Source: a virus (lineage: Duplodnaviria; Heunggongvirae; Uroviricota; Caudoviricetes). From it: a DNA stretch of 11,345 nt. Location of the stretch: IMG/VR virus record IMGVR_UViG_2529293038_000029; one strand, written 5' to 3'. Below the pieces are notes generated by a model, which saw nothing but the letters and a program-made list of their open reading frames with translations, had not been told where the DNA came from and did no database searches. The position numbers and the translations under genes were made by a program. Below, one piece after another: positions 1 through 11,345 of this stretch (position 1 is the first letter of the stretch; each line of letters begins with the position of its first letter).

Positions 1-228
1 AGCGTGATCAGGTGTTTCATACTCCTGCCCAGTCTGTCCAGCTTCCAGACAACCAGCGTATCTCCTTCTGTATAGCGTTCTGATCAGTTTTTTCAATCCC
101 GGTCTGGCTGATTTCGTTCCGCTGATTTTATCTTCAAAAATCAGTTCACATCCTGCGCACTCCAGCGCGTTACGCTGCAATTCTGTATTCTGGTCATTTG
201 TTGATACGCGGACATAGCCAATAAGCAT
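1..228 (-). pseudogene. Inverted 5' fragment of a second serine-invertase gene copy; frameshifted and truncated by the window edge
   Basis: Minus-strand ATG at 228..226 corresponds to the invertase start at 2276. The sequence matches the first ~76 codons of the intact copy, but a 1-nt insertion near position 70 (tgtata versus tgata) breaks the frame. The copy continues beyond the left edge. Confidence 0.7.
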
Positions 229-284
229 GATGGATCCCCTGAATAAAAACCGGGGATGATGCCAGTTAGCCATAATCTCTGCAG

Positions 285-310
285 TTCTTGATTACGTTGG
301 TTTGGGAGAA
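285..310. other. Left hix/gix-like recombination site of the invertible segment
   Basis: Read on the minus strand it is TTCTCCCAAACC-AA-CGTAATCAAGAA: 12-bp half-sites around an AA core. The inner half is identical to the right site and resembles hix/gix half-sites (TTCTTGAAAACC). It encodes the VGLGE junction of the plus-strand tail-fibre frame. Confidence 0.6.
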
Positions 311-1855: not shown

Positions 1856-2248
1856 TTAACAGCCTAACGCTAAAAATGAAGCGCCGAGGCCAGGAGTACT
1901 GGCTCTGGATATAAATTTAACCGGGTCGGGACTAAAACCTGCACAGGCAATATAACCAACAGACCCGCTATCTGGTGTGTAGTCTTGTGAAACCAAAACA
2001 CGCAGACATCTGTTTGGAAATGCAATCGGGAAATGGGTTACTACATCCTGTGCAATGCCTGGTGCGCCGATTGAGCCCCACTGAAGAATAAAACCTGATG
2101 GTAATTTTTGATATCCAGTACCTGAAACAGAAAGCGTGAAGCTACCCATATCAGGTATCTGATTCGTCCCTGTCCCCACATTCTTTTTTGCCGCTTCTCC
2201 CAAACCAACGTTTAAGAAAATGCAGAGATTATGGCTAACTGGCATCAT
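1856..2248 (-). CDS. Alternate tail-fibre C-terminal variable cassette (Sv'-like), promoterless in this configuration
   Basis: Minus-strand ORF immediately upstream of Tfa', reading through the right recombination site (encodes NVGLGE). Its apparent N-terminus (to 2248) is antisense to the invertase leader and is probably not a real start. I do not recognise the domain. Confidence 0.55.
2195..2220. other. Right hix/gix-like recombination site of the invertible segment
   Basis: TTCTCCCAAACC-AA-CGTTTAAGAAAA: imperfect dyad, 12 + 2 + 12 bp with an AA core, close to hixL (TTCTTGAAAACC AA GGTTTTTGATAA). Lies just upstream of the invertase gene. Confidence 0.65.
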
Positions 2249-2502
2249 CCCCGGTTTTTATTCAGGGGATCCATCATGCTTATTGGCTATGTCCGCGTAT
2301 CAACAAATGACCAGAATACAGAATTGCAGCGTAACGCGCTGGAGTGCGCAGGATGTGAACTGATTTTTGAAGATAAAATCAGCGGAACGAAATCAGCCAG
2401 ACCGGGATTGAAAAAACTGATCAGAACGCTATCAGAAGGAGATACGCTGGTTGTCTGGAAGCTGGACAGACTGGGCAGAAGTATGAAACACCTGATCACG
2501 CT
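2195..2502. repeat. Right arm of the long inverted repeat (recombination site, invertase leader and first ~76 codons)
   Basis: Reverse-complement identity with 1..310 as described for the left arm. Confidence 0.85.
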
Positions 2503-2875
2503 TATTGAGGAATTGCGGGAAAAAGGTGTTAATTTCCGTAGTCTGACGGACAGCATTGACACATCAACACCCATGGGGCGTTTCTTTTTTCACGTCATGG
2601 GGGCTTTAGCCGAAATGGAACGTGAATTAATTGTAGAGCGTACACTGGCCGGGCTGGCAGCAGCACGCGCACAAGGACGCATTGGCGGACGTCGCCCGAA
2701 GTTGACAAAAGAACAACACGAGCAAATAGCGAGGCTGATTAAAAACGGTCATGACAGGAAACAACTGGCGATCATTTACGACATCGGCATATCGACGATT
2801 TATCGTTATCACCCTGTAGGCGATATACAGGCTGAAGAAACAACCAGGCAGACTCAGGAAAATGAAAACCGCTAA
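2276..2875 (+). CDS. Site-specific DNA invertase, serine recombinase of the Gin/Hin/Pin/Cin (Din) family
   Basis: MLIGYVRVSTNDQ N-terminus with the catalytic serine in the VRVSTNDQ motif, a resolvase-type catalytic domain (GDTLVVWKLDRLGRS) and a C-terminal helix-turn-helix (RKQLAIIYDIGISTIYRY). Start taken at the ATG at 2276, which has an AGGGGA Shine-Dalgarno; the track ORF starts upstream at 2231. Product is 199 aa. Confidence 0.9.
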   Translation: MLIGYVRVSTNDQNTELQRNALECAGCELIFEDKISGTKSARPGLKKLIRTLSEGDTLVVWKLDRLGRSMKHLITLIEELREKGVNFRSLTDSIDTSTPMGRFFFHVMGALAEMERELIVERTLAGLAAARAQGRIGGRRPKLTKEQHEQIARLIKNGHDRKQLAIIYDIGISTIYRYHPVGDIQAEETTRQTQENENR

Positions 2876-2894
2876 TCTGACCATTAGCGGTTTT
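2866..2894. terminator. Bidirectional intrinsic terminator between the convergent invertase and U genes
   Basis: Perfect hairpin AAAACCGCTAAT-ctgacc-ATTAGCGGTTTT, with a T-tract on the plus strand and an A-tract (T-tract on the minus strand) on the other side. Overlaps the invertase stop codon (2873..2875). Confidence 0.6.
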
Positions 2895-2901
2895 GCGTTA
2901 A

Positions 2902-3396
2902 TCAAAACAGCCCTTTAACGGAGCTGGCCGCGCTGTTAAGGGATGATGTGACCTTATCTTTGAAGCCGGACAGCATATCACTGAACGATGAGGATTGCAG
3001 GCGCTCCCGCAAATCCTCATCACAGCGTTCAAGGGTCAGTGAAAATTCTATCTTTTTCGCCTTACCGTAGCGATCAAACTCGGAACGGGTCGTATTCGTT
3101 CCAGTCAGGACATACATGCCGTAAATCTGCCCGACGCCATCAATCAAAGGCCAGGGTCGTCCTGTATAAGCCTGCGTGGTCAGCAGCGACAGCGACACTT
3201 CGCCACCTGTAATTTCAGGATAAAGCACACCAGAAAGAACGATGCGATCATCACCTGCACCGATATACTGCCAGCTTGCTGAACGGTTAATGCGTTCATT
3301 TTTCACATGCCGCCAGCTTTTGTTTTGCTGTAACTGCTGATGCGGCAGCGTGCGCAGCTCAAAAACAAACATGCCGTAGATCATCATCATGGCCAT
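2902..3396 (-). CDS. U: Tail protein U (P2 gpU-like)
   Basis: 164 aa; the motif ...SWRH..NERINRSASWQY.G.....LSGV.YPEITGGE... matches P2 gpU. Immediately downstream of the tape measure gene. Confidence 0.8.
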   Translation of the reverse strand: MAMMMIYGMFVFELRTLPHQQLQQNKSWRHVKNERINRSASWQYIGAGDDRIVLSGVLYPEITGGEVSLSLLTTQAYTGRPWPLIDGVGQIYGMYVLTGTNTTRSEFDRYGKAKKIEFSLTLERCDEDLRERLQSSSFSDMLSGFKDKVTSSLNSAASSVKGLF

Positions 3397-3402
3397 GACT
3401 CC

Positions 3403-6246
3403 TCAATCTTTATCGTAAAAACTGCCACGCCCGGCACGGGCGCGCCGTTCCATTTCTGCCCTGACCATTTCACCGACCAGTTTCGCCAGTTCGCGGGGAT
3501 TCTGCGTAACAACGTTATGCAGATGAACATGAATTTCACCACCAAATTCGGAGGCAACAGGCTCCCGGTTACGGGAAGTTACAGGAACTGATGCCACTGG
3601 AGATCGTATAGCCTCCGCCACCGGGCGGGAGCTGGCCGCAACAACAGTGACCAGCGCCGGAGGCAGCGGAGCCGGAACCACAGGTGTGATATTAATTGCG
3701 GGGGCAGGCTTACTGACCTGCGCAATCTTCCGCTCCTGCCACTCCCCACGAACAGCAAGTGCCCGGGGCAGGTTTTTAAAGACAATATCGCCGGGGCCAA
3801 TGCGTTTTTTCGTCTCCTCAACCAGCTTACCTGTGTTATCAGCAATTTTGCTGAGTCTGCGCAGCGTACCGGTATTGCTGTCTGTGAGCGGTTTATTGTC
3901 TTTGGGGTTATCACCTCCGGTGCCATTGCCATTTTCCACAGGCTTCGGCGGATTGATTTTCGCCAGGTCCCCCTGAAGCAAGGCAACCTTGTCCTGAAGA
4001 ATGGCCGCACGCTGTGCGTCTTCGATTTTCTTGCGCGCCCTTTCCGCTTCATCCGGAAGCACACCAAGCTTTTCAAGTATCCACGCCAGCGTATCCAGCA
4101 ACATTTTTGCAGGTGTCAGAACAAGTTGTAACGCACCGCCAAGAACGTTACCGAATATCTCGCCAGCACTGGTACATTTATCCAGAGTTTCCTTGCTGGA
4201 CTCCATCGGTGACAGCAGCGATTTAAACCAGTTAAACACCTGGCTTATCCCGCTTCCGATTGCGTCAAAAACAGGACCAAACCGTTCAAAGGTTTCGCGC
4301 AACGGGGCCAGCCGCTCCATAATCCCACTGAACACCCCGGCAAAAAATGCCCTGATTGGGTCCCAGTATTTCCAGATAAGAATGGCAGCTCCGGCAAGCG
4401 CAGCCACGATAAGACCAACCGGACTGAACAGCGCCCCGATAGCGCCCCCCAGTAACGAAACGGAACCCGTCACCATTCCCCATAGTGCTGGCAGAACCCT
4501 GACAGCATTCATTGATCCGGTCAGGAGGGAAAAACCAAGACGCAGTTTTGCCAGCGGGCCAGCAAGCACACCAATAGCCAGCGACAACGAGCCAACCGTT
4601 GCAGTCATTGCCAGCAGTGCACCGCCTGCAATCAGTAGCTGGCGCGTCAGTGCGGGATGGGCCTGCGCCAGCGCCGTCACCTTTGATACCACACGCGTGA
4701 GCCACTGCGTGACAGAACGCAGCGGACCGTCAATCAGATCTGCAATGCGGATGCGCAACCCTTCCCATGCACTGCTGAGTGATTTCAGATCGCCGTCAAG
4801 GTTGTTGGCCATAACCTTTGCCGTGCGTTCAGCCTCACCGCGCGCGCCTTCAAGTTCTTTTCTCAGTTTGGGTAAGGAGCCGTCACCTGCCGCATCAACG
4901 AGGGCCATAAATGATGTGAAAGCCTCTTCTCCGGCAATGTCCTTAAAGAACGATACCCGGTCAACTTCCCCGTATTTGCGGGTAGCTTTATAAAGGTCAG
5001 CCAGCACATCCTCCATCGGGCGCATTTTGCCCCCGGCATCCGAGACAGACACGCCAAGCTCTTTCAGCGCCTCTGCTGCCGCCTTTGGCGGTGATGCCAG
5101 ACGAGCCAGGCTGGCACGCATTGCCGTACCAGCATCACTCCCCCTGATACCCATATTCGCCAGCACGCCCGCCATCGCTGCGGCCTGCTCCAGCGATATT
5201 CCCAGCTTACCCGCCACCGGACCTGCATATTTCATGGTTTCACCCAGTGCGCGAAGGTCAGTGTTGGTACGGGTAAACGCTGCGGTGAGTGTGTCGCCGA
5301 CCCGGTCCATCTGGTCAGCAGAAAGACCGAACTGCGTCAGAATATTTGAGCCAATATCCGCCGTCTCACCGAGGTCCATACCGCCAGCCGTTGCCATGCT
5401 CAGTACGCCAGGGAGCGCAGCCTGAATGGCCTGTGGTGTGAAGCCAGCCATTGCAAGAAATGCCTGCCCACTGGCGGCATCGCCTGCGGTGAACTGCGTT
5501 TCAGAGCCAAGTTTTAACGCCTGCTCACGCAGCGCCTTAAACTGCGGGCTGTTTTTGTCGATTCGCGTCAGTGCCTGAACGCGGGACATCTCTTTCCCGA
5601 ACCCGATCGCAGGCTGCAAAAAACGCCCGGCAGCATAGCCGCCCGCCGCTGCCGCACCAATTGCCAGCGCACCACCTGTTTTCAGTTTTCCCGCTGTTTC
5701 CTGCGCGCGCGAATACCGCTCACGCGCCTGCGTTACACGCGCAAGCGCCTGCCGTTCGCGTTCAAGCTGGTTGTTGTACTGTTCGGTGCGTCTGATGGCC
5801 TGCTGGATGGTGTTATCGCTGCCTGTCAGGGAAATGCCGTGGCGTTTCAGCTCTCCGCCAATCTCCCGCATTTTCTGAATTTCCCGTGTGCGCGATTCAT
5901 TCAGGCGTTCAAGCCGGGTGCTTAACTGCTGCATCAGCTTTTGTTGTTTTTCGCTGAGCACTGTACCCGTGCGTTGTAACTGATTAAGGGCGTTAAGCTG
6001 GCGTCGTGCTTTCACGATACCCGCATCCGCTTTACTGACAGCGTCGCGGGCGCGCTCAAATGAACGCGCCTGACGCTCGAGATTTTTGATCGCCCCCTGC
6101 GTTCGCTGGATGGAGTCACCAAACTGCCCCATCAGGCGGCGGGCGTTTTCGGCAGGCCGGGTCAGCCTGTCAACGGCGCTGAAAGCGACCCGGATATCAA
6201 GAGTCTTCATTGTCTGCATTCCCGCTGCGAAGTGCCGCCCGCTCAC
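3403..6246 (-). CDS. T: Tail tape measure protein (P2 gpT-like)
   Basis: 947 aa with a coiled-coil N-terminus, a central glycine/alanine-rich hydrophobic region and tape-measure core motifs. Sits between E/E' and U. The start is uncertain: GTG at 6246, or ATG at 6219 or 6210. Confidence 0.85.
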   Translation of the reverse strand: MSGRHFAAGMQTMKTLDIRVAFSAVDRLTRPAENARRLMGQFGDSIQRTQGAIKNLERQARSFERARDAVSKADAGIVKARRQLNALNQLQRTGTVLSEKQQKLMQQLSTRLERLNESRTREIQKMREIGGELKRHGISLTGSDNTIQQAIRRTEQYNNQLERERQALARVTQARERYSRAQETAGKLKTGGALAIGAAAAGGYAAGRFLQPAIGFGKEMSRVQALTRIDKNSPQFKALREQALKLGSETQFTAGDAASGQAFLAMAGFTPQAIQAALPGVLSMATAGGMDLGETADIGSNILTQFGLSADQMDRVGDTLTAAFTRTNTDLRALGETMKYAGPVAGKLGISLEQAAAMAGVLANMGIRGSDAGTAMRASLARLASPPKAAAEALKELGVSVSDAGGKMRPMEDVLADLYKATRKYGEVDRVSFFKDIAGEEAFTSFMALVDAAGDGSLPKLRKELEGARGEAERTAKVMANNLDGDLKSLSSAWEGLRIRIADLIDGPLRSVTQWLTRVVSKVTALAQAHPALTRQLLIAGGALLAMTATVGSLSLAIGVLAGPLAKLRLGFSLLTGSMNAVRVLPALWGMVTGSVSLLGGAIGALFSPVGLIVAALAGAAILIWKYWDPIRAFFAGVFSGIMERLAPLRETFERFGPVFDAIGSGISQVFNWFKSLLSPMESSKETLDKCTSAGEIFGNVLGGALQLVLTPAKMLLDTLAWILEKLGVLPDEAERARKKIEDAQRAAILQDKVALLQGDLAKINPPKPVENGNGTGGDNPKDNKPLTDSNTGTLRRLSKIADNTGKLVEETKKRIGPGDIVFKNLPRALAVRGEWQERKIAQVSKPAPAINITPVVPAPLPPALVTVVAASSRPVAEAIRSPVASVPVTSRNREPVASEFGGEIHVHLHNVVTQNPRELAKLVGEMVRAEMERRARAGRGSFYDKD

Positions 6247-6726
6247 GCCAGCTAACCACTTCGCCGGGCGTCATCATGAAGATTTCGGCGGGCGACCAGT
6301 TAAAAATAACGGCAATATCTGCCACAAAGTCTTCTATGTGCTCAAAGCACACAACCGTGATCAGGCTTCCGTCGCCTGTTCGTTCTTCCCGCCAGAGTCC
6401 GCACCGCTCAAAAAATTTACGGCAACCACACATAACTGAATAAAGTCACGGGATGCCATTTTTTTGATCGTCACTTCATCCAGTCGCGGTGATGTCACGC
6501 GTGACAGCAGCGTAAACATGGATTCCGCTTTCAGATTCAGCACATCAGACAGCGACAAATCTCGCAGAGATCCAGCCTGCTCAATAGCCCCGGTGATCTC
6601 CACATACGTGATTTTTTCGCCGCCTCGCTCAATTGGTTGGGTAAGTTTTACGCCACGCTCACTGGTTTCTTTCACAGTGTCAGCAACTACCGTGTTTTCG
6701 GTATCGATGTTTTTCGTCTCTTTCAT
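6197..6726 (-). CDS. E+E' fusion chaperone, made by a programmed -1 ribosomal frameshift
   Basis: The -1 frame after the slippery site stays open to the stop at 6197..6199 and overlaps the start of T, as in P2 E/E'. Predicted fusion is about 176 aa. Confidence 0.6.
6361..6726 (-). CDS. E: Tail assembly chaperone E (P2 gpE-like), zero-frame product
   Basis: 121-aa ORF between FII and T, with a GGAG Shine-Dalgarno upstream of the ATG at 6726. Contains the slippery heptamer T_TTT_TTG spanning codons 104-106. Confidence 0.7.
   Translation of the reverse strand: MKETKNIDTENTVVADTVKETSERGVKLTQPIERGGEKITYVEITGAIEQAGSLRDLSLSDVLNLKAESMFTLLSRVTSPRLDEVTIKKMASRDFIQLCVVAVNFLSGADSGGKNEQATEA
6409..6415 (-). 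other. Programmed -1 frameshift slippery heptamer TTTTTTG (E to E+E')
   Basis: Plus strand reads CAAAAAA at 6409..6415, which is T TTT TTG on the coding strand in the correct register (AAT TTT TTG). Identical to the P2 E/E' shift site. Confidence 0.7.
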
Positions 6727-6780
6727 CAGGAAACTCCTTTCAGTCAGAGGCGACGCACTGCGCCGCCTGCATATTACTTA

Positions 6781-7293
6781 TCAGCCAAGCCCAAGCGCGG
6801 AACGGATGCGATCGGGCACAATGTCCTTGCCGTCCTTCCGGTAAATGAAGTTCAGCAGGTCAATCTCCCACAGCGGGCGATCGTTAACGCTCAGCTTGTA
6901 GTAGGTGTTTTTAATGGCGTAAGAGTGTGATGTGGCTTCGCCCTGTTTGGCTTCCCCCATATCAATTTCCGTCACACGTCCGCGCATTTCGACTTCATAC
7001 AGGTCGCTTTCTGCATCGGTGTAGTATTCACCCGCAAAACGCAGCAGCGTGCCGTCAATCGTGCCGCCATACTTAAGGAACAGCTCACGAACTGCGCCCC
7101 CCATGACAAAGCTCGCATCAAGCGCGGAGTCGTCCAGACCGAGATCAATACTTACCGCACCCATCATGCCACCACCCCGGTAGCTGTCGGTTTTGCGCGT
7201 CAGCTTAGGCAGAGTGACGGACGTCACCTTACCCACTTCGTTTTCACCATCCACAAACAGCGTAAAAAAGCGAAGATGTTTTGGCACAGCCAT
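6781..7293 (-). CDS. FII: Major tail tube protein (P2 gpFII-like)
   Basis: 170 aa; motifs VTLPKLTRK..YRG.GM.G, DLGLDD, RFAG.Y, MRGR..EID.GE.KQGE match P2 FII. GGGAGG Shine-Dalgarno; the start overlaps the FI stop (TGATG). Confidence 0.88.
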   Translation of the reverse strand: MAVPKHLRFFTLFVDGENEVGKVTSVTLPKLTRKTDSYRGGGMMGAVSIDLGLDDSALDASFVMGGAVRELFLKYGGTIDGTLLRFAGEYYTDAESDLYEVEMRGRVTEIDMGEAKQGEATSHSYAIKNTYYKLSVNDRPLWEIDLLNFIYRKDGKDIVPDRIRSALGLG

Positions 7294-8477
7294 CAGGCAC
7301 CTCCCAGCACCGCAAATGCGGGTTCAAAGTATTCATCAGTAAACGTCTGGTAAAGCTCCATATCTTCCAGCGGGGGAACAGGCGTATATTTGTAGCGAAT
7401 ACGCACACGCCCCTGACGTAAATCCGTGGTGCTGTTATCCACCACGTCATACCAGCACTCCGCGCCAATCAGTTTCCCGGCAGTAACCAGTGAATCCAGT
7501 TTTGCCCTGATGGCACTGATAACATCCTTCACGTTCGCAGGCGTCAGTGGACTGTCGATGGTTTCAAACTGCGCTTCCGCAATTGAATCAGCCAACACCT
7601 GTGCGGTTCGGGTATACACCTCAAAGATGTAGGCGTTCGTTTCCGGTGTGCGGTTGCCCCAGAAGCGGAACCCGTTGCGACGAATAATGGTCGTGATTTC
7701 TTTGTTGTTGAGGCTGTTGGCATCACTGTCTTCGGCCTGCAACGACCAGAACACATGCCTGGACATCCCCAGCACATTTTTAACCGGAACGTTGGACAGC
7801 GATTTGTGCCAGCCCTGTTCATGGTCAATGTACGCACGGAGGCCGCACGCATAGGCAGGCGCGGGGAACGTTTCGTTTTTGCCACTTTTGGGGTTGTAGG
7901 CGATGAAGTCCGGCCATAAGAGCATCACCTCACGTTCGTTGAATTTCTGGCGGTAGGTAATCGCCTCAGCCATCGTGTTACAGCCGTGACATGAGGCATA
8001 CACAAACGCGCGCAGTTTACCTGCAATCACGCACAGGGATTTTGTTACAGCCTCCGTGTCCAGCTCCGGCGCGGCCAGAATACGCGGACGGTATCCGATG
8101 CTTTCATCCTGCTCTGCAACAAGCAGCGCATACATCCCCGTATAGCTGCCGTCATCCTCAGAACCACCGATAACCAGTTGATCCTGCGTCTTTCCGTCTT
8201 CTTCTTTGTGTTCAGCCACGCGAACGACGATCACCTTTGTGCTCACCTGGTCTGCAATGGCCTTAAGCGCACGATAAAGCGTCCCCGTTGTCCCGCATTT
8301 TCCCAGCACGTCATTGACGCGGGTCAGCAGTGTGGGCTTGTTCAGCGGGAACAGCTTCGCGTCCGCATCATCCGCCGTTGCCACGATACCGATAACGCTG
8401 GAATCAACATCGTTAATCGCTGTTACCAGGTCGGTATTTTCCGTAACACGGGCACCATGAAAACGAGTTTCACTCAT
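7293..8477 (-). CDS. FI: Contractile tail sheath protein (P2 gpFI-like)
   Basis: 394 aa; motifs DADA..FPLNKP, KLRAF, YRQ.F..RE.M..WPDF, DHEQGWHKSLSNV, FRFWGNRT, YTRTAQV.AD, YKYTPVPPLE match P2 FI. Confidence 0.88.
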   Translation of the reverse strand: MSETRFHGARVTENTDLVTAINDVDSSVIGIVATADDADAKLFPLNKPTLLTRVNDVLGKCGTTGTLYRALKAIADQVSTKVIVVRVAEHKEEDGKTQDQLVIGGSEDDGSYTGMYALLVAEQDESIGYRPRILAAPELDTEAVTKSLCVIAGKLRAFVYASCHGCNTMAEAITYRQKFNEREVMLLWPDFIAYNPKSGKNETFPAPAYACGLRAYIDHEQGWHKSLSNVPVKNVLGMSRHVFWSLQAEDSDANSLNNKEITTIIRRNGFRFWGNRTPETNAYIFEVYTRTAQVLADSIAEAQFETIDSPLTPANVKDVISAIRAKLDSLVTAGKLIGAECWYDVVDNSTTDLRQGRVRIRYKYTPVPPLEDMELYQTFTDEYFEPAFAVLGGA

Positions 8478-8634
8478 AGCTTCAGCCCCTTGTATCCGTT
8501 AAATGATTCGGCAACAATCATCACCCACCACGCGCGTAATCTCACCCCTGCGCCGTTCTCCCGACCCGGCGACAACAAAAAGCAGTAACCCCCTCCGCAC
8601 GCACATGCGACCATGCCGCACAGGGAGGGAACAG

Positions 8635-9744
8635 ATGACCGACACCACCATGCAATTGCTCAGTCAGGGCACAGACCCCGTGAAAATGCCGGATTTTGAT
8701 ATTCTTGCGGAGGGTAAAACGCTGTCAGGCGTGGCAGAGCGCCTGATGAGCCTGTCACTGACCGACAACCGGGGATTTGAGGCGGACCAGCTCACCATCA
8801 CGCTGGATGATGCGGATGGTCAGTTGCAGCTACCGCCACGGGGCGCGCGCCTGACGGTTCTCATTGGCTGGAAAGGAGAACCGCTGACAGAAAAAGGCAC
8901 TTACATTGTTGATGAAATCGCTCACGAAGGACCGCCGGACAGGCTGACTGTTTCAGCCAGAAGCGCAGATTTTCGGGATGAATTTAACGTTAAACGTGAG
9001 GTGTCCTGGCATGATGTGACCCTTGAGCGTGTGGTATCCGCCATCGCTCATCGGTATGGTCTGAAACCACAAATCAGCGAAATGCTGATGGATATCGAAA
9101 TCGACCACGCCGACCAGACCGAAGAAAGCGACATGTCCTTCCTTACGCGCATGGCGGAAATGCTGGGCGCAATCACCACGGTAAAAAGCGGTAATCTGTT
9201 ATTCATCATGCCAGGCGGTGGCGTGAACGCACAGGGCCAGCCGTTGCCCTCGTTCGCCATCACGCGCAGCAGTGGCGATCGCCATCAGTTCCGCATTGCT
9301 GACCGCGAAGCGTATACGGGGGTACGCGCTTACTGGCTTGATCTTAATTACGGGAAAAAGAAAAAAGTCAGCGTGAAACGCCGCAAACCGCCAAAACCCA
9401 AAAAGGAGAAAAGCAGCAGCCGTGAAGGTGATTATATGGAAGGCGCAGAAGGCAATGTGTTTGTGTTACGCAAGACTTATCAGAACGAACAGGCAGCAAG
9501 ACGCGCAGCGGCGGCAAAGTGGCAGCAGCTACAACGCGGAGCCGCAGCGTTCTCCATCACACTGGCACGTGGACGCGCAGAACTCTACCCCGAAATGCAT
9601 GGCACGGTAACAGGATTTAAAAGCGAAATTGATAATCAGGACTGGATTATTGCAAAAGCCGAGCACACCATTGATAACAGTGGCTTTACCACGCAGCTTG
9701 AGCTTGAAGCCAAAATCCCGGAATGGATAGCAGAAACAGAGTAA
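8635..9744 (+). CDS. D: Tail protein D (P2 gpD, late control gene D family)
   Basis: About 369 aa with Phage_GPD-like N-terminal motifs (DFDILAEGKTLSG, LSLTDNRGFEADQLTITLDD). Start placed at the ATG at 8635 because of the strong GGGAGGG Shine-Dalgarno; the track ORF begins upstream at 8503. Transcribed divergently from FI. Confidence 0.8.
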   Translation: MTDTTMQLLSQGTDPVKMPDFDILAEGKTLSGVAERLMSLSLTDNRGFEADQLTITLDDADGQLQLPPRGARLTVLIGWKGEPLTEKGTYIVDEIAHEGPPDRLTVSARSADFRDEFNVKREVSWHDVTLERVVSAIAHRYGLKPQISEMLMDIEIDHADQTEESDMSFLTRMAEMLGAITTVKSGNLLFIMPGGGVNAQGQPLPSFAITRSSGDRHQFRIADREAYTGVRAYWLDLNYGKKKKVSVKRRKPPKPKKEKSSSREGDYMEGAEGNVFVLRKTYQNEQAARRAAAAKWQQLQRGAAAFSITLARGRAELYPEMHGTVTGFKSEIDNQDWIIAKAEHTIDNSGFTTQLELEAKIPEWIAETE

Positions 9745-9938
9745 ACAACTTAGATGCATTAGCCCTGACATTTGCTAACGCGCTTACAGCAAGAATCATA
9801 ACCAATCTGACAGCCTACCCGGTGTCAAAATCAGAAGAGCCTTACATTAGAATATGTTAATTTGTAGCAAACAAATTTACACACAAATGATTACTGCTGA
9901 AATAGCCCCCATAAATACCATGTCAAAGGATCCATGTT

Positions 9939-10604
9939 ATGAATATGCAAATTTTTATCGCACCAGCAGCCACAGTTGCTGCAGTCTGCCTTGCTGCATA
10001 TTTTGCTTTACGAAATGAACGTAAAAAGAAAGCACTTGAGATTAGAACAACTCAACTAGATCGAATATCAGAGCTAGTAAACCGAGCATCTACCAATTTG
10101 ATGCAATATACAGGTACTCTTGCCTCTATACTGGAAGCGCACGCCAAAGATAATTATCTACCGAACAAAAAATTTGACATTAATGTAATTAGCAAATGGA
10201 AAGATTGCCTCGATGAGAGTGAGGTCTGGGCGATTGATAGACAGCAACTAAGAACATGTCAGCACAGTCTGGAGTTTCATCGTGAAAAAGAATGGGCTGA
10301 ATGGAAAAAAATAATTCCACCATTACTTGATAAAATTGACCAATTTTTTCTCATATCTAAGCCAGGGCAACCTGTTACGTTTATAAATGGCCAAAACAAA
10401 ACAGCTGATGAACTACTTGTTTTCTCAAGATATTTGAGAAAACAAACAGCAGAAATTGAATCAGTACGTCAGCTGTTACTTTCTCAAATGAGAGAGGAAT
10501 TCATCGAGTTAACTAGCTTTGAACCTGTCACAATGTTTAGCTTATTTAAATCAATAAAGAAAAATGTCATGCAATTTTTCTGTATCAGTGCTCTTAAAAA
10601 TTGA
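9939..10604 (+). CDS. Hypothetical membrane-anchored protein: one N-terminal transmembrane helix plus about 190 aa soluble domain; AT-rich cargo gene
   Basis: 221-aa ORF with AAGGA Shine-Dalgarno 8 nt upstream. Hydrophobic N-terminus (IFIAPAATVAAVCLAAYFAL) followed by a K/E-rich domain I do not recognise. Visibly lower GC than the flanking phage genes. Confidence 0.6.
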   Translation: MNMQIFIAPAATVAAVCLAAYFALRNERKKKALEIRTTQLDRISELVNRASTNLMQYTGTLASILEAHAKDNYLPNKKFDINVISKWKDCLDESEVWAIDRQQLRTCQHSLEFHREKEWAEWKKIIPPLLDKIDQFFLISKPGQPVTFINGQNKTADELLVFSRYLRKQTAEIESVRQLLLSQMREEFIELTSFEPVTMFSLFKSIKKNVMQFFCISALKN

Positions 10605-10619
10605 CGCTCTGTTGCAAGC

Positions 10620-10650
10620 AACCCCAGTGTTAAACTGGGGTTATTCTTGC
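10620..10650 (+). terminator. Intrinsic terminator downstream of the AT-rich ORF
   Basis: 9-bp perfect stem AACCCCAGT-gttaa-ACTGGGGTT followed by a T-rich tract (TATTCTTG). Confidence 0.55.
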
Positions 10651-10753
10651 TAAGAGACCTTTCTACGGCATCAGTAAACAAAACGAACTATCAGTTGGAG
10701 TCTGAGCAAGTTCAGCCTAAACTAGCGACAGCACTACGTTAAGGGAGGTCGCT

Positions 10754-11014
10754 ATGTTCCGTTGTCCGCTTTGTGGCGCATCTGCCCGTATCCGCACCAG
10801 TCGTCCGGAAAATGATTCAAACACCGTGCGGCAAAAGTATTACCAGTGTAACAACCTGGAATGCGGCGTATGCTTCTCAACACTGGAAGCTTTCCATAAA
10901 TTCACATCGAAACACGCCTCCGGCATCCACTCTTCAGAAGATATCCCGTGGCATGAGCTGCCAGCTTCACACAGGGGAAACAATCAGATGAGCTTGCCTT
11001 TACCTCAGAATTAA
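10754..11014 (+). CDS. ogr: Ogr/Delta-family zinc-finger late transcription activator
   Basis: MFRCPLCGASARIRTSR...YYQCNNLECGVCFSTLE matches P2 Ogr (MFHCPLCQHAAHARTSR...YHQCQNVNC..F.T.E), with a Cys-x2-Cys ... Cys-x4-Cys zinc-binding pattern. GGGAGG Shine-Dalgarno. 86 aa, longer than P2 Ogr at the C-terminus. Confidence 0.88.
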   Translation: MFRCPLCGASARIRTSRPENDSNTVRQKYYQCNNLECGVCFSTLEAFHKFTSKHASGIHSSEDIPWHELPASHRGNNQMSLPLPQN

Positions 11015-11074
11015 CAGGCAGAATTGCCGGAGTAACAAAAAAGCGATAGATTACGCGCGGGTGCCTTTCGGCTG

Positions 11075-11287
11075 ATGGTCGGAGGGAATACCCGAAGGCC
11101 AGATGTGGAAAGGCCCCGGAAAACATCTCTGTTTAACCGAGGCCCTAACCGCATTACCTTGACAAGTGAAAGGTTAGCGCCTCTCCGGAAAAGGAGCAAG
11201 TGCTATGTCGCAAAAATCGCTTACGGCCATCACGTTCTGCGTGACGGCAATCCTCATCATCTGGATGTTGCACGGTTCGCTGTGTGA
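11075..11287 (+). CDS. mok-like overlapping reading frame of a hok-type locus (tentative)
   Basis: 70-aa ORF in a different frame, starting about 130 nt upstream of the hok-like gene and overlapping it, as mok does in hok/sok loci. Assigned by position and length only. Confidence 0.35.
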   Translation: MVGGNTRRPDVERPRKTSLFNRGPNRITLTSERLAPLRKRSKCYVAKIAYGHHVLRDGNPHHLDVARFAV

Positions 11288-11345
11288 AATACGGATGAGC
11301 TTCTGGGGAGCGGAGTTTGCGGCGTTCTTACAGTGTAAGCAGTAA
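11205..11345 (+). CDS. hok: Hok/Gef-family type I toxin (small membrane peptide)
   Basis: 46 aa, MSQKSLTAITFCVTAILIIWMLHGSLCEIRMSFWGAEFAAFLQCKQ: an N-terminal transmembrane segment then the family signature SLCEIR ... E.AAF (compare Hok [22 protein letters not shown] and HokA ...AAFLACK). AGGAG Shine-Dalgarno 7 nt upstream. The stop codon is the last 3 nt of the window. Confidence 0.75.
   Translation: MSQKSLTAITFCVTAILIIWMLHGSLCEIRMSFWGAEFAAFLQCKQ

What the first reader, a model, noticed from the sequence alone, without database searches (positions are those of the whole stretch)
2876..8634. Tail module FI-FII-E-E'-T-U is inverted relative to D and ogr
In P2 and its relatives, as I recall them, FI, FII, E, E', T, U and D form one co-directional late operon (the F operon) followed by ogr. 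Here FI to U are on the minus strand, while D, the AT-rich ORF and ogr are on the plus strand. FI and D are divergent across a 157-bp spacer, and U converges on the invertase across a 26-bp spacer that holds a palindromic terminator. The simplest reading is an in-place inversion of the roughly 5.6-kb FI-to-U block, which leaves D needing its own promoter. I found no Ogr-type TGT-N12-ACA box in 8478..8634 when scanning by eye.
Basis: partly seen in the sequence, partly recalled or inferred. Interest (0 to 1): 0.6.

Follow-up and report, generated by a model that had tools for sequence, protein, structure and literature searches.

The report
Normal tail-gene layout of P88-like phages
The tail genes really do point the opposite way from phage P2, but this is the standard, ancient gene order of a large group of working P2-related phages (phage P88 and relatives), so it is ordinary and not a peculiarity of this isolate.

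Summary
U, T, E/E', FII and FI lie on the minus strand. D, an AT-rich ORF and ogr lie on the plus strand. The spacers are 157 bp (FI/D) and 26 bp (invertase/U). The window is 96-99% identical at protein level to the inducible, plaque-forming phage P88 (Xuanwuvirus), which has the same layout. So do ΦSM, 500465-2, SEN5, 1,355 of 5,426 complete E. coli genomes, and all 60 sampled loci from more than 25 Enterobacterales genera whose D is at least 61% identical. These loci form one clade in D and FI trees. P2, phiCTX and a Mannheimia phage keep the co-directional order. The rest of P88 is colinear with P2, so the change is an in-place inversion that carried the pF promoter with it. A one-mismatch Ogr box (TCT-N12-ACA, 8557-8574) sits where 38 of 41 relatives have T[G/C]T-N12-ACA. 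-10 elements lie in identical register on both sides of it. I infer one shared activator site driving divergent pF and pD promoters, as annotated for P2's pP/pO. Interest is low.

The parts
2231..2875 (+). Serine DNA invertase (Gin/Hin/Pin type) of the tail-fibre switching region. It is not part of the inverted block. The homologous start is probably the ATG near 2276.
   Evidence: Pfam Resolvase 1e-51 plus HTH_7; PHROG 125 'DNA invertase' 9e-100. Most clade members with the same FI/D layout lack it.
2865..2926 (.). Convergent end of the invertase gene and the F operon. It holds a 12-pair palindrome (2865-2894, spanning the invertase stop codon) and a second hairpin with a T-run (2908-2926, minus strand) at the U stop codon.
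   Evidence: Terminator scan and the sequence itself.
2902..3396 (-). gpU tail protein, last gene of the leftward F operon.
   Evidence: Pfam Phage_P2_GpU 1e-38; 47% identical to P2 U and 99% to P88.
3403..6246 (-). gpT tape measure protein.
   Evidence: Pfam PhageMin_Tail 4e-58; 34% identical to P2 T and 98% to P88.
6197..6726 (-). gpE (6361-6726) and the E+E' -1 frameshift extension (to 6197), with slippery T_TTT_TTG at 6409-6415.
   Evidence: PHROG 1756 'tail protein' 9e-44 for the E' frame; 32% identical to P2 E; slippery site read directly and frame arithmetic checked.
6781..7293 (-). gpFII tail tube.
   Evidence: Pfam Phage_tube 6e-47.
7293..8477 (-). gpFI tail sheath, first gene of the leftward F operon.
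   Evidence: Pfam sheath domains; 46% identical to P2 FI and 99.7% to P88.
8478..8634 (.). FI/D divergent control region. It is 140-164 bp long throughout the clade.
   Evidence: Spacer alignment of 41 loci with conserved blocks.
8557..8574 (.). Dyad late-activator (Ogr-type) box TCTCCCGACCCGGCGACA, centred on 8565.5.
   Evidence: 38 of 41 spacers have T[GC]T-N12-ACA at this aligned position, against a shuffle mean of 3.2 and maximum of 9. In the P88 genome TT[GC]T-N12-ACAA occurs 3 times, and 2 of these are in the two divergent late intergenic regions.
8517..8522 (-). Predicted -10 of pF (GATGAT on the minus strand). The predicted start is near 8510, giving a leader of about 33 nt to the FI ATG.
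   Evidence: In box-anchored register, A at offset 53 and T at offset 57 occur in 41 of 41 FI sides. The offsets equal those of P2 pF. This is an inference, not a mapped start.
8609..8614 (+). Predicted -10 of pD (GACCAT, preceded by TG at 8606-8607). The predicted start is near 8621, giving a leader of about 14 nt that contains GGGAGGG.
   Evidence: The same offsets, A53 and T57, occur in 36 of 41 D sides, and no other offset exceeds 9 of 41. This is an inference.
8635..9744 (+). gpD (baseplate hub / late control D), now the first gene of a rightward unit.
   Evidence: Pfam Phage_GPD; 49% identical to P2 D and 96% to P88; cluster P0001 is 369 aa, 99% identical, with 6052 members.
9939..10604 (+). 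AT-rich cargo ORF (221 aa, function unknown) in the variable D-ogr gap, followed by a hairpin at 10620-10642.
   Evidence: No Pfam, PHROG or PADLOC hit. GC is 0.35-0.37. PGAP calls it a hypothetical protein. It is absent from P88 and replaced by a different gene in 500465-2.
10754..11014 (+). ogr-type late activator (MFRCPLCG..., C4 zinc finger).
   Evidence: Pfam Ogr_Delta 5e-14; translation; PGAP 'Ogr/Delta-like zinc finger protein'.

Best explanation
This is the ordinary late tail region of a P88-like (Xuanwuvirus-type) P2-family prophage. In the common ancestor of a large enterobacterial clade of Peduoviridae, the segment [pF promoter-FI-FII-E/E'-T-U] was inverted in place, and the arrangement became fixed. 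The inversion detached D from the F operon and placed it back-to-back with FI. The F operon is still driven by its original Ogr-dependent promoter. Its dyad box lies about 80-88 bp upstream of the FI ATG, as in P2 and other relatives with the canonical order. Because the activator site is a dyad, the same site also serves a second promoter on the other strand (pD), positioned symmetrically. The -10 hexamers on both sides lie at offset 52-57 from the box edge, which puts the box centre at about -55.5 for both promoters. This is the design that P2's own annotation records for its divergent pP/pO pair. Shown here: the layout, its distribution, its monophyly, the conservation of the box and the symmetric -10 register. 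Inferred: the actual transcription starts and the dependence of pD on Ogr.
For: P2's co-directional F operon and pF activator site come. The identical layout appears in P88, P884B11, ΦSM, PhiR44_2, Chuche, 500465-2 and SEN5. P88 is inducible and forms plaques, and ΦSM is an active temperate phage. The FI/D junction is colinear in 1,355 of 5,426 complete E. coli genomes, and the invertase/U junction in 631. All 60 genome loci with D at least 61% identical have the divergent layout, and all 20 with D at most 53% identical have the canonical one. The divergent set is monophyletic in both the D and FI neighbour-joining trees rooted on phiCTX. The outgroups phiCTX and Mannheimia phiMhaA1 are canonical. 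P88 is otherwise colinear with P2, and the tail block is as diverged (31-47%) as the other structural genes (26-54%). The box is conserved in 38 of 41 spacers, against 3.2 expected. The distance from box centre to FI ATG has a median of 82.5, compared with 83 in P2 and 79.5-81.5 in canonical relatives. The -10 positions A53/T57 occur in 41 of 41 FI sides and 36 of 41 D sides. P2's annotation lists one activator site for pP and pO, with starts 56 and 55 bp from its centre.
Against: No transcription start has been mapped for any member of this clade, so pD and its Ogr dependence rest on sequence geometry and conservation alone. The window's box is TCT, not TGT, and its -10 hexamers (GATGAT, GACCAT) are weak. 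The predicted pD leader is only about 14 nt. The neighbour-joining trees are quick distance trees without support values. Loci were sampled as the best 80 of 420 hits, so rare exceptions could have been missed.
Confidence: 0.85

Rival explanations
1. The block was inverted recently in this isolate, or the orientation is an assembly artefact at the two junctions.
For: The left end of the window (1-286) carries an odd inverted copy of the invertase 5' end. This suggests an assembly path through an invertible region nearby.
Against: Both junctions are reproduced as single colinear matches in hundreds to more than a thousand independent complete genomes and in sequenced virion genomes. The FI/D spacer is a conserved functional region, not a scar.
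Confidence: 0.01
2. The adjacent Gin/Hin-type invertase flips the FI-U block as a programmed, reversible switch.
For: An invertase gene abuts the block, and such enzymes can act on secondary sites (background knowledge).
Against: No inverted repeat has arms at the two block boundaries; the only long inverted repeats flank the 1.9-kb tail-fibre segment. Most clade members with the same layout have no invertase, for example SEN5. Only one orientation is seen in about 1,355 E. coli genomes. Flipping the block would also separate FI from its promoter geometry.
Confidence: 0.02
3. The block was not inverted. Instead, a foreign tail module already in the opposite orientation was imported by recombination from another myovirus.
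For: P2-family phages do exchange tail-fibre genes: H and G are 76-95% identical to P2 while the rest is about 40%.
Against: FI, FII, E, T and U are as diverged from P2 (31-47%) as D, the capsid genes and the baseplate genes. The FI and D trees give the same clade. Gene order inside the block and the geometry between the pF box and the FI ATG are those of P2.
Confidence: 0.04
4. The layout is ancestral to the clade as described, but D is expressed from an Ogr-independent promoter (or another activator site), not from the shared box.
For: The D side carries a TG-extended -10 and a conserved CGCGCG block of unknown role. The window's box half-site on the D-proximal reading is imperfect.
Against: The D-side -10 keeps exactly the same offset from the box as the FI-side -10, even where the leader length varies by 10 bp between subclades. 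P2 pP/pO provide a precedent for sharing one site.
Confidence: 0.15

Closest known systems
Escherichia phage P88 (NC_026014; Xuanwuvirus, Peduoviridae) and relatives ΦSM, P884B11, PhiR44_2, 500465-2 (Gemsvirus) and SEN4/SEN5 (Senquatrovirus)
   Same: The gene order and strands from the invertase or G through U-T-E-FII-FI | D-ogr-hok are identical. Protein identity to P88 is 96-99.7% for U, T, E, FII, FI and D, and the FI/D spacer is nearly identical.
   Different: The window carries a 221-aa AT-rich ORF between D and ogr that P88 lacks. The tail-fibre cassettes differ, and the invertase is only 86% identical.
Phage P2 F operon (pF-FI-FII-E-E'-T-U-D, followed by ogr)
   Same: The genes are the same and in the same internal order. 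The T_TTT_TTG E/E' frameshift site is the same. An activator box lies about 83 bp upstream of the FI ATG, and ogr lies downstream of D.
   Different: FI-U and pF are inverted relative to D and ogr. D is no longer translationally overlapped with U and heads its own unit. Proteins are only 32-49% identical. The box is TCT-N12-ACA, where the P2 late-promoter consensus is TGT-N12-ACA.
Phage P2 pP/pO divergent late promoters with a single shared Ogr binding site
   Same: One central dyad site lies between two back-to-back late operons. In P2 the starts are 56 and 55 bp from the site centre, and the predicted geometry here is the same (-10 hexamers at offset 52-57 on both sides). P88's own P/O spacer (154 bp) has the same TTCT-N12-ACAA box.
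   Different: In P2 this design exists only at P/O. Here a second copy of the design exists at FI/D, apparently created by the inversion. The starts are not mapped.
Gin/Cin/Pin/Hin invertible tail-fibre segments (Mu G, P1 C, e14 P)
   Same: The neighbouring 1.9-kb segment (about 287-2217) holds opposed tail-fibre C-termini and assembly genes. It is flanked by inverted crossover-like cores and lies next to a serine invertase.
   Different: That system concerns the tail-fibre cassettes only. The FI-U block has no flanking inverted repeats and one fixed orientation.

Membership tests
P88-like clade of Peduoviridae (Xuanwuvirus and allied genera) | High identity and colinearity with the type phage across the tail region | tested here: met
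   Megablast gives 95-96% identity over 2265-11345. tblastn gives 96-99.7% for U, T, E, FII, FI and D.
P88-like clade of Peduoviridae (Xuanwuvirus and allied genera) | Divergent FI | D arrangement with ogr downstream of D | tested here: met
   All 63 divergent-layout records fall in one clade of the D and FI trees.
P88-like clade of Peduoviridae (Xuanwuvirus and allied genera) | Complete, inducible phage genome (head, lysis, replication and integration modules) | not testable with these tools
   The window covers only the tail fibre to hok. A 99%-identical copy in E. coli JNEC-KY180 ends next to ihfA. The intactness of this particular prophage is unknown.
P2-type F operon | FI, FII, E, E' (-1 frameshift), T and U in this order on one strand behind a late promoter | tested here: met
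P2-type F operon | D is the co-directional last gene of the same operon | tested here: not met
   D is on the opposite strand, 157 bp from the FI start.
Ogr/Delta-dependent late promoter | Dyad TGT-N12-ACA centred near -55 upstream of a -10 element with a weak -35 | tested here: inconclusive
   The window has TCT-N12-ACA, one mismatch from the consensus. 26 of the 41 spacers have exact TGT at the same position, and the -10 register is conserved. The position relative to a real start is not known.
Ogr/Delta-dependent late promoter | A cognate Ogr/Delta C4 zinc-finger activator is encoded by the phage | tested here: met
   Pfam Ogr_Delta 5e-14 for 10754-11014.
Ogr/Delta-dependent late promoter | Transcription depends on the activator | not testable with these tools
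   This needs induction experiments with ogr or box mutants.
Shared-site bidirectional late promoter (P2 pP/pO type) | A single activator site equidistant (about 55 bp) from two divergent starts | tested here: inconclusive
   There is a single box per spacer and -10 hexamers at identical offsets on both sides. P2's precedent is annotated. The starts are not mapped.
Programmed invertible DNA segment (serine-invertase switch) | Inverted-repeat crossover sites at both boundaries of the segment | tested here: not met
   No inverted-repeat pair has arms at 2876-2901 and 8478-8634.
Programmed invertible DNA segment (serine-invertase switch) | Both orientations occur among closely related genomes | tested here: not met
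   1,355 of the 1,371 E. coli genomes with a match carry the same colinear FI/D junction, and none was seen in the other orientation.

The most novel reading that the evidence does not exclude
An ancestral inversion broke the P2-type F operon exactly at the U/D boundary and just upstream of the pF activator site. Because that site is a dyad, a new promoter (pD) could arise on its far side. One unidirectional Ogr-dependent promoter thus became a second pP/pO-style bidirectional late promoter, which is now fixed across more than 25 enterobacterial genera. I found no paper in the searchable library that describes this clade-defining rearrangement or the shared pF/pD site.
Probability: 0.55. Interest if true: 0.3.

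Novelty: already known. Interest (0 to 1): 0.15.

Why it matters
The practical value is for annotation. A divergent FI/D arrangement in a P2-like prophage should not be flagged as a rearrangement, a misassembly or a sign of decay. It is a reliable synteny marker that separates the P88/SEN4-type clade from the P2/186-type clade. The one modest biological point is evolutionary. A dyad-symmetric activator site lets an operon be split by inversion without loss of co-regulation, because the same Ogr site can drive both halves. This is testable with a simple 5'-end mapping experiment on phage P88.

Tried and rejected
1. A strict TGT-N12-ACA scan of the window found 0 hits. That pattern was too narrow. 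Relaxing it to T[GC]T and aligning relatives revealed the box.
2. I looked for inverted repeats at the block boundaries as footprints of the inversion or as invertase sites and found none. Only the tail-fibre segment is flanked by repeats.
3. The generic sigma-70 scan found no promoter in the FI/D spacer. This is expected for activator-dependent promoters, so it is not informative.
4. I considered the longer 413-aa D ORF from 8503, which the 500465-2 record uses. I rejected it because the extension is not conserved among relatives, PGAP and the 6,052-member cluster use the 369-aa start, and the extension would overlap the conserved promoter elements.
5. My first ogr coordinates (10773 GTG frame) were wrong. 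Pfam and the translation place ogr at 10754-11014.
6. I searched the P88, ΦSM and SEN-phage papers, and ran two further library queries (one on 'Xuanwuvirus', one combining Peduoviridae, synteny, inversion and tail sheath), for any mention of the inversion. I found none.
7. Pfam, PHROG and PADLOC gave nothing for the AT-rich ORF.
Full report
**1. The observation**

- The serine invertase is at 2231-2875 on the plus strand.
- U (2902-3396), the tape measure T (3403-6246), E (6361-6726), FII (6781-7293) and the sheath FI (7293-8477) are all on the minus strand.
- E has a -1 frame extension, E', running to 6197.
- D (8635-9744), an AT-rich ORF (9939-10604, GC about 0.36) and an Ogr/Delta zinc-finger gene are on the plus strand.
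- The zinc-finger gene is at 10754-11014 (MFRCPLCG...), not in the 10773 GTG frame.

The E/E' slippery heptamer T_TTT_TTG lies at 6409-6415 in the right frame.

The 157-bp FI/D spacer and the 26-bp invertase/U spacer are as described. The invertase/U spacer holds a 12-pair palindrome at 2865-2894, and a second hairpin with a T-run lies at the U stop codon.

P2's GenBank annotation shows pF, FI, FII, E, E', T, U, D and ogr on one strand. The block is therefore inverted relative to P2. tblastn confirms this: all six P2 homologues are on one strand in P2 and on split strands here.

**2. The layout is not special to this locus**

Megablast against phage records returns colinear matches over about 2270-11345 to P88, P884B11, Citrobacter ΦSM, PhiR44_2, Chuche, 520873, 503458 and 500465-2. 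The annotations of P88 and 500465-2 show the same strands: invertase +, U to FI -, D +. Proteins are 96-99.7% identical to P88.

Both reference phages are functional.
- P88 was obtained by mitomycin C induction, forms plaques and was engineered through its lysogen (PMC5285337).
- ΦSM is a spontaneously released, plaque-forming, lysogenising phage, described as a fully functional relative of P88 (PMC6456863).

A 651-bp probe across the FI start, the spacer and the D start matches colinearly at 80% coverage or more in 1,355 of 5,426 complete E. coli genomes. A probe across the invertase/U junction does so in 631.

**3. How old and how wide the arrangement is**

I used an alignment of diverse D proteins to scan one genome per bacterial species. 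I then located FI, FII, E, T, U, D and ogr in each of the 80 loci by tblastn.

The split is clean.
- All 60 loci with D at least 61% identical to the window's D have U-T-E-FII-FI on the strand opposite to D-ogr. They come from Salmonella, Serratia, Erwinia, Pantoea, Klebsiella, Enterobacter, Citrobacter, Pectobacterium, Brenneria, Hafnia, Yersinia, Xenorhabdus, Photorhabdus, Providencia, Morganella and others.
- All 20 loci with D at most 53% identical, which are closer to P2, have the canonical co-directional order.

Neighbour-joining trees of D and of FI, rooted on phiCTX, both place the 61 divergent-layout sequences in one clade with no canonical member inside it. The more distant phiCTX and Mannheimia phiMhaA1 are canonical, so the co-directional order is ancestral. 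Salmonella phage SEN5 (Senquatrovirus) has the divergent layout and no invertase.

P2 proteins map onto the P88 genome in P2 order throughout (Q P | O N M L X R S V W J I H G | block | D ogr | int C | cox A). The tail block is as diverged (31-47%) as the other structural genes. This favours one in-place inversion in the clade ancestor, not the import of a foreign module.

**4. How the split operon is expressed**

*The box.* I aligned 41 FI/D spacers (140-164 bp) from the clade. A dyad T[G/C]T-N12-ACA occupies the same aligned position in 38 of the 41. Shuffled spacers give a mean of 3.2 and a maximum of 9.
- 26 of the spacers have the exact P2 consensus TGT-N12-ACA. This is the consensus of the four Ogr-dependent P2 late promoters (PMC3931495).
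- The window, P88 and one subclade have TCT-N12-ACA (window 8557-8574). This is why the strict scan found nothing.
- In the whole P88 genome, TT[GC]T-N12-ACAA occurs three times. Two of these fall in the two divergent late intergenic regions, P/O and FI/D.

*The FI side.* The box centre lies 78.5-88.5 bp (median 82.5) from the FI ATG. The corresponding distance is 83 bp in P2 and 79.5-81.5 bp in canonical-layout relatives. The old pF promoter therefore travelled with the block.

*Symmetry.* Read outward from the box without gaps, the two most informative -10 positions (A at offset 53, T at offset 57) are present in 41 of 41 FI sides and 36 of 41 D sides. No other offset exceeds 9 of 41. -35-like residues lie 17 bp upstream of the -10 on each side. 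A hexamer at offset 52-57 puts the box centre at about -55.5 for both directions.

*Precedent.* P2's annotation records exactly this design for its other divergent pair: one 'activator binding site; pO, pP promoters', with starts 56 and 55 bp from its centre.

*Inference for the window.*
- A leftward pF has its -10 (GATGAT) at 8522-8517 and a start near 8510.
- A rightward pD has its -10 (GACCAT) at 8609-8614, preceded by TG, and a start near 8621.
- Both share the single box at 8557-8574, which would be bound by the phage's Ogr protein (10754-11014).

The starts and the Ogr dependence are inferred, not measured.

**5. Rival explanations**
- A recent inversion or a misassembly is excluded by the colinear matches in hundreds of genomes.
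- A programmed flip by the neighbouring invertase is not supported. No inverted repeats bracket the block, most clade members lack the invertase, and only one orientation is seen.
- Import of a foreign module is unlikely, given even divergence across the genome and congruent trees.
- An Ogr-independent promoter for D remains possible (about 0.15). It conflicts with the fixed register of the D-side -10 relative to the box, which holds even where leader lengths differ by 10 bp.

**6. Comparison with what is known, and verdict**

The locus is a member of the P88-like clade. It fails one defining feature of the P2 F operon, namely D as the co-directional last gene, and it works like P2's pP/pO shared-site promoter pair.

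The layout is visible in many deposited and ICTV-classified genomes, so the feature is already known as data. None of the papers I could search comments on it.

The finding is correct as an observation and ordinary in meaning. The only mildly new element is the inference that the inversion produced a second bidirectional Ogr-dependent promoter. Interest is 0.15.

Noticed in passing
window 1-286 versus 2218-2502; cores at 294-311 and 2194-2211: The first 286 bases are a near-perfect reverse-complement copy of the invertase 5' end and its upstream region, with one extra base near position 71 and one mismatch. 18-nt crossover-like cores (ACGTTGGTTTGGGAGAAG) flank the 1.9-kb tail-fibre cassette segment. 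No phage or complete E. coli genome matches 1-282 colinearly. The copy is probably a contig-end assembly path through an invertible segment present in both orientations; less likely, it is a real truncated inverted copy.
   Followed up: partly
window 9939-10604 (+), hairpin at 10620-10642: This is an AT-rich (GC about 0.36) 221-aa ORF with a hydrophobic N-terminus between D and ogr. It has no Pfam, PHROG or PADLOC match, and PGAP calls it hypothetical (WP_001057122.1). P88 has nothing at this position. 500465-2 has a different gene on the opposite strand, and 520873 has a 56%-identical relative. The D-ogr gap therefore looks like a variable cargo (moron or defence) hotspot.
   Followed up: partly
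window 4126-4145 (minus strand, inside T): A third match to the extended box TT[GC]T-N12-ACAA lies inside the tape-measure gene, in the direction of transcription. It is also present in P88. About two such matches are expected by chance per 36 kb, so this one is probably fortuitous.
   Followed up: no
window about 11075-11287 (+): A Hok/Gef-type toxin locus (annotated 'MokW-like host killing' in P88 and 500465-2, and 'Hok/Gef family protein' by PGAP) follows ogr at the prophage end. In a 99%-identical genome the next genes are ihfA and pheT.
   Followed up: partly
window 8530-8545, and P88 (L004) 14185-14200: A CGCGCG(N0-2)GTAATCT block occurs in the FI/D spacer, reading towards D upstream of the box. 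It also occurs in P88's P/O spacer, reading towards P downstream of the box. A CGCGCGCG run precedes the D-side -10 in most relatives. Its role is unknown.
   Followed up: no
L004 (P88) 33155-33286; L002 (500465-2) 11120-12361: P88's annotated gp50 (a 132-nt ORF inside the FI/D spacer) overlaps the conserved promoter elements, as does the 413-aa version of D annotated in 500465-2. Both are probably over-calls.
   Followed up: partly
P88 versus P2 genes H and G (L004 22580-25384): The tail-fibre genes H and G of P88 are 76% and 95% identical to those of P2, while the rest of the structural genes are about 26-54% identical. This indicates recent horizontal exchange of host-range genes between the two clades.
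   Followed up: no
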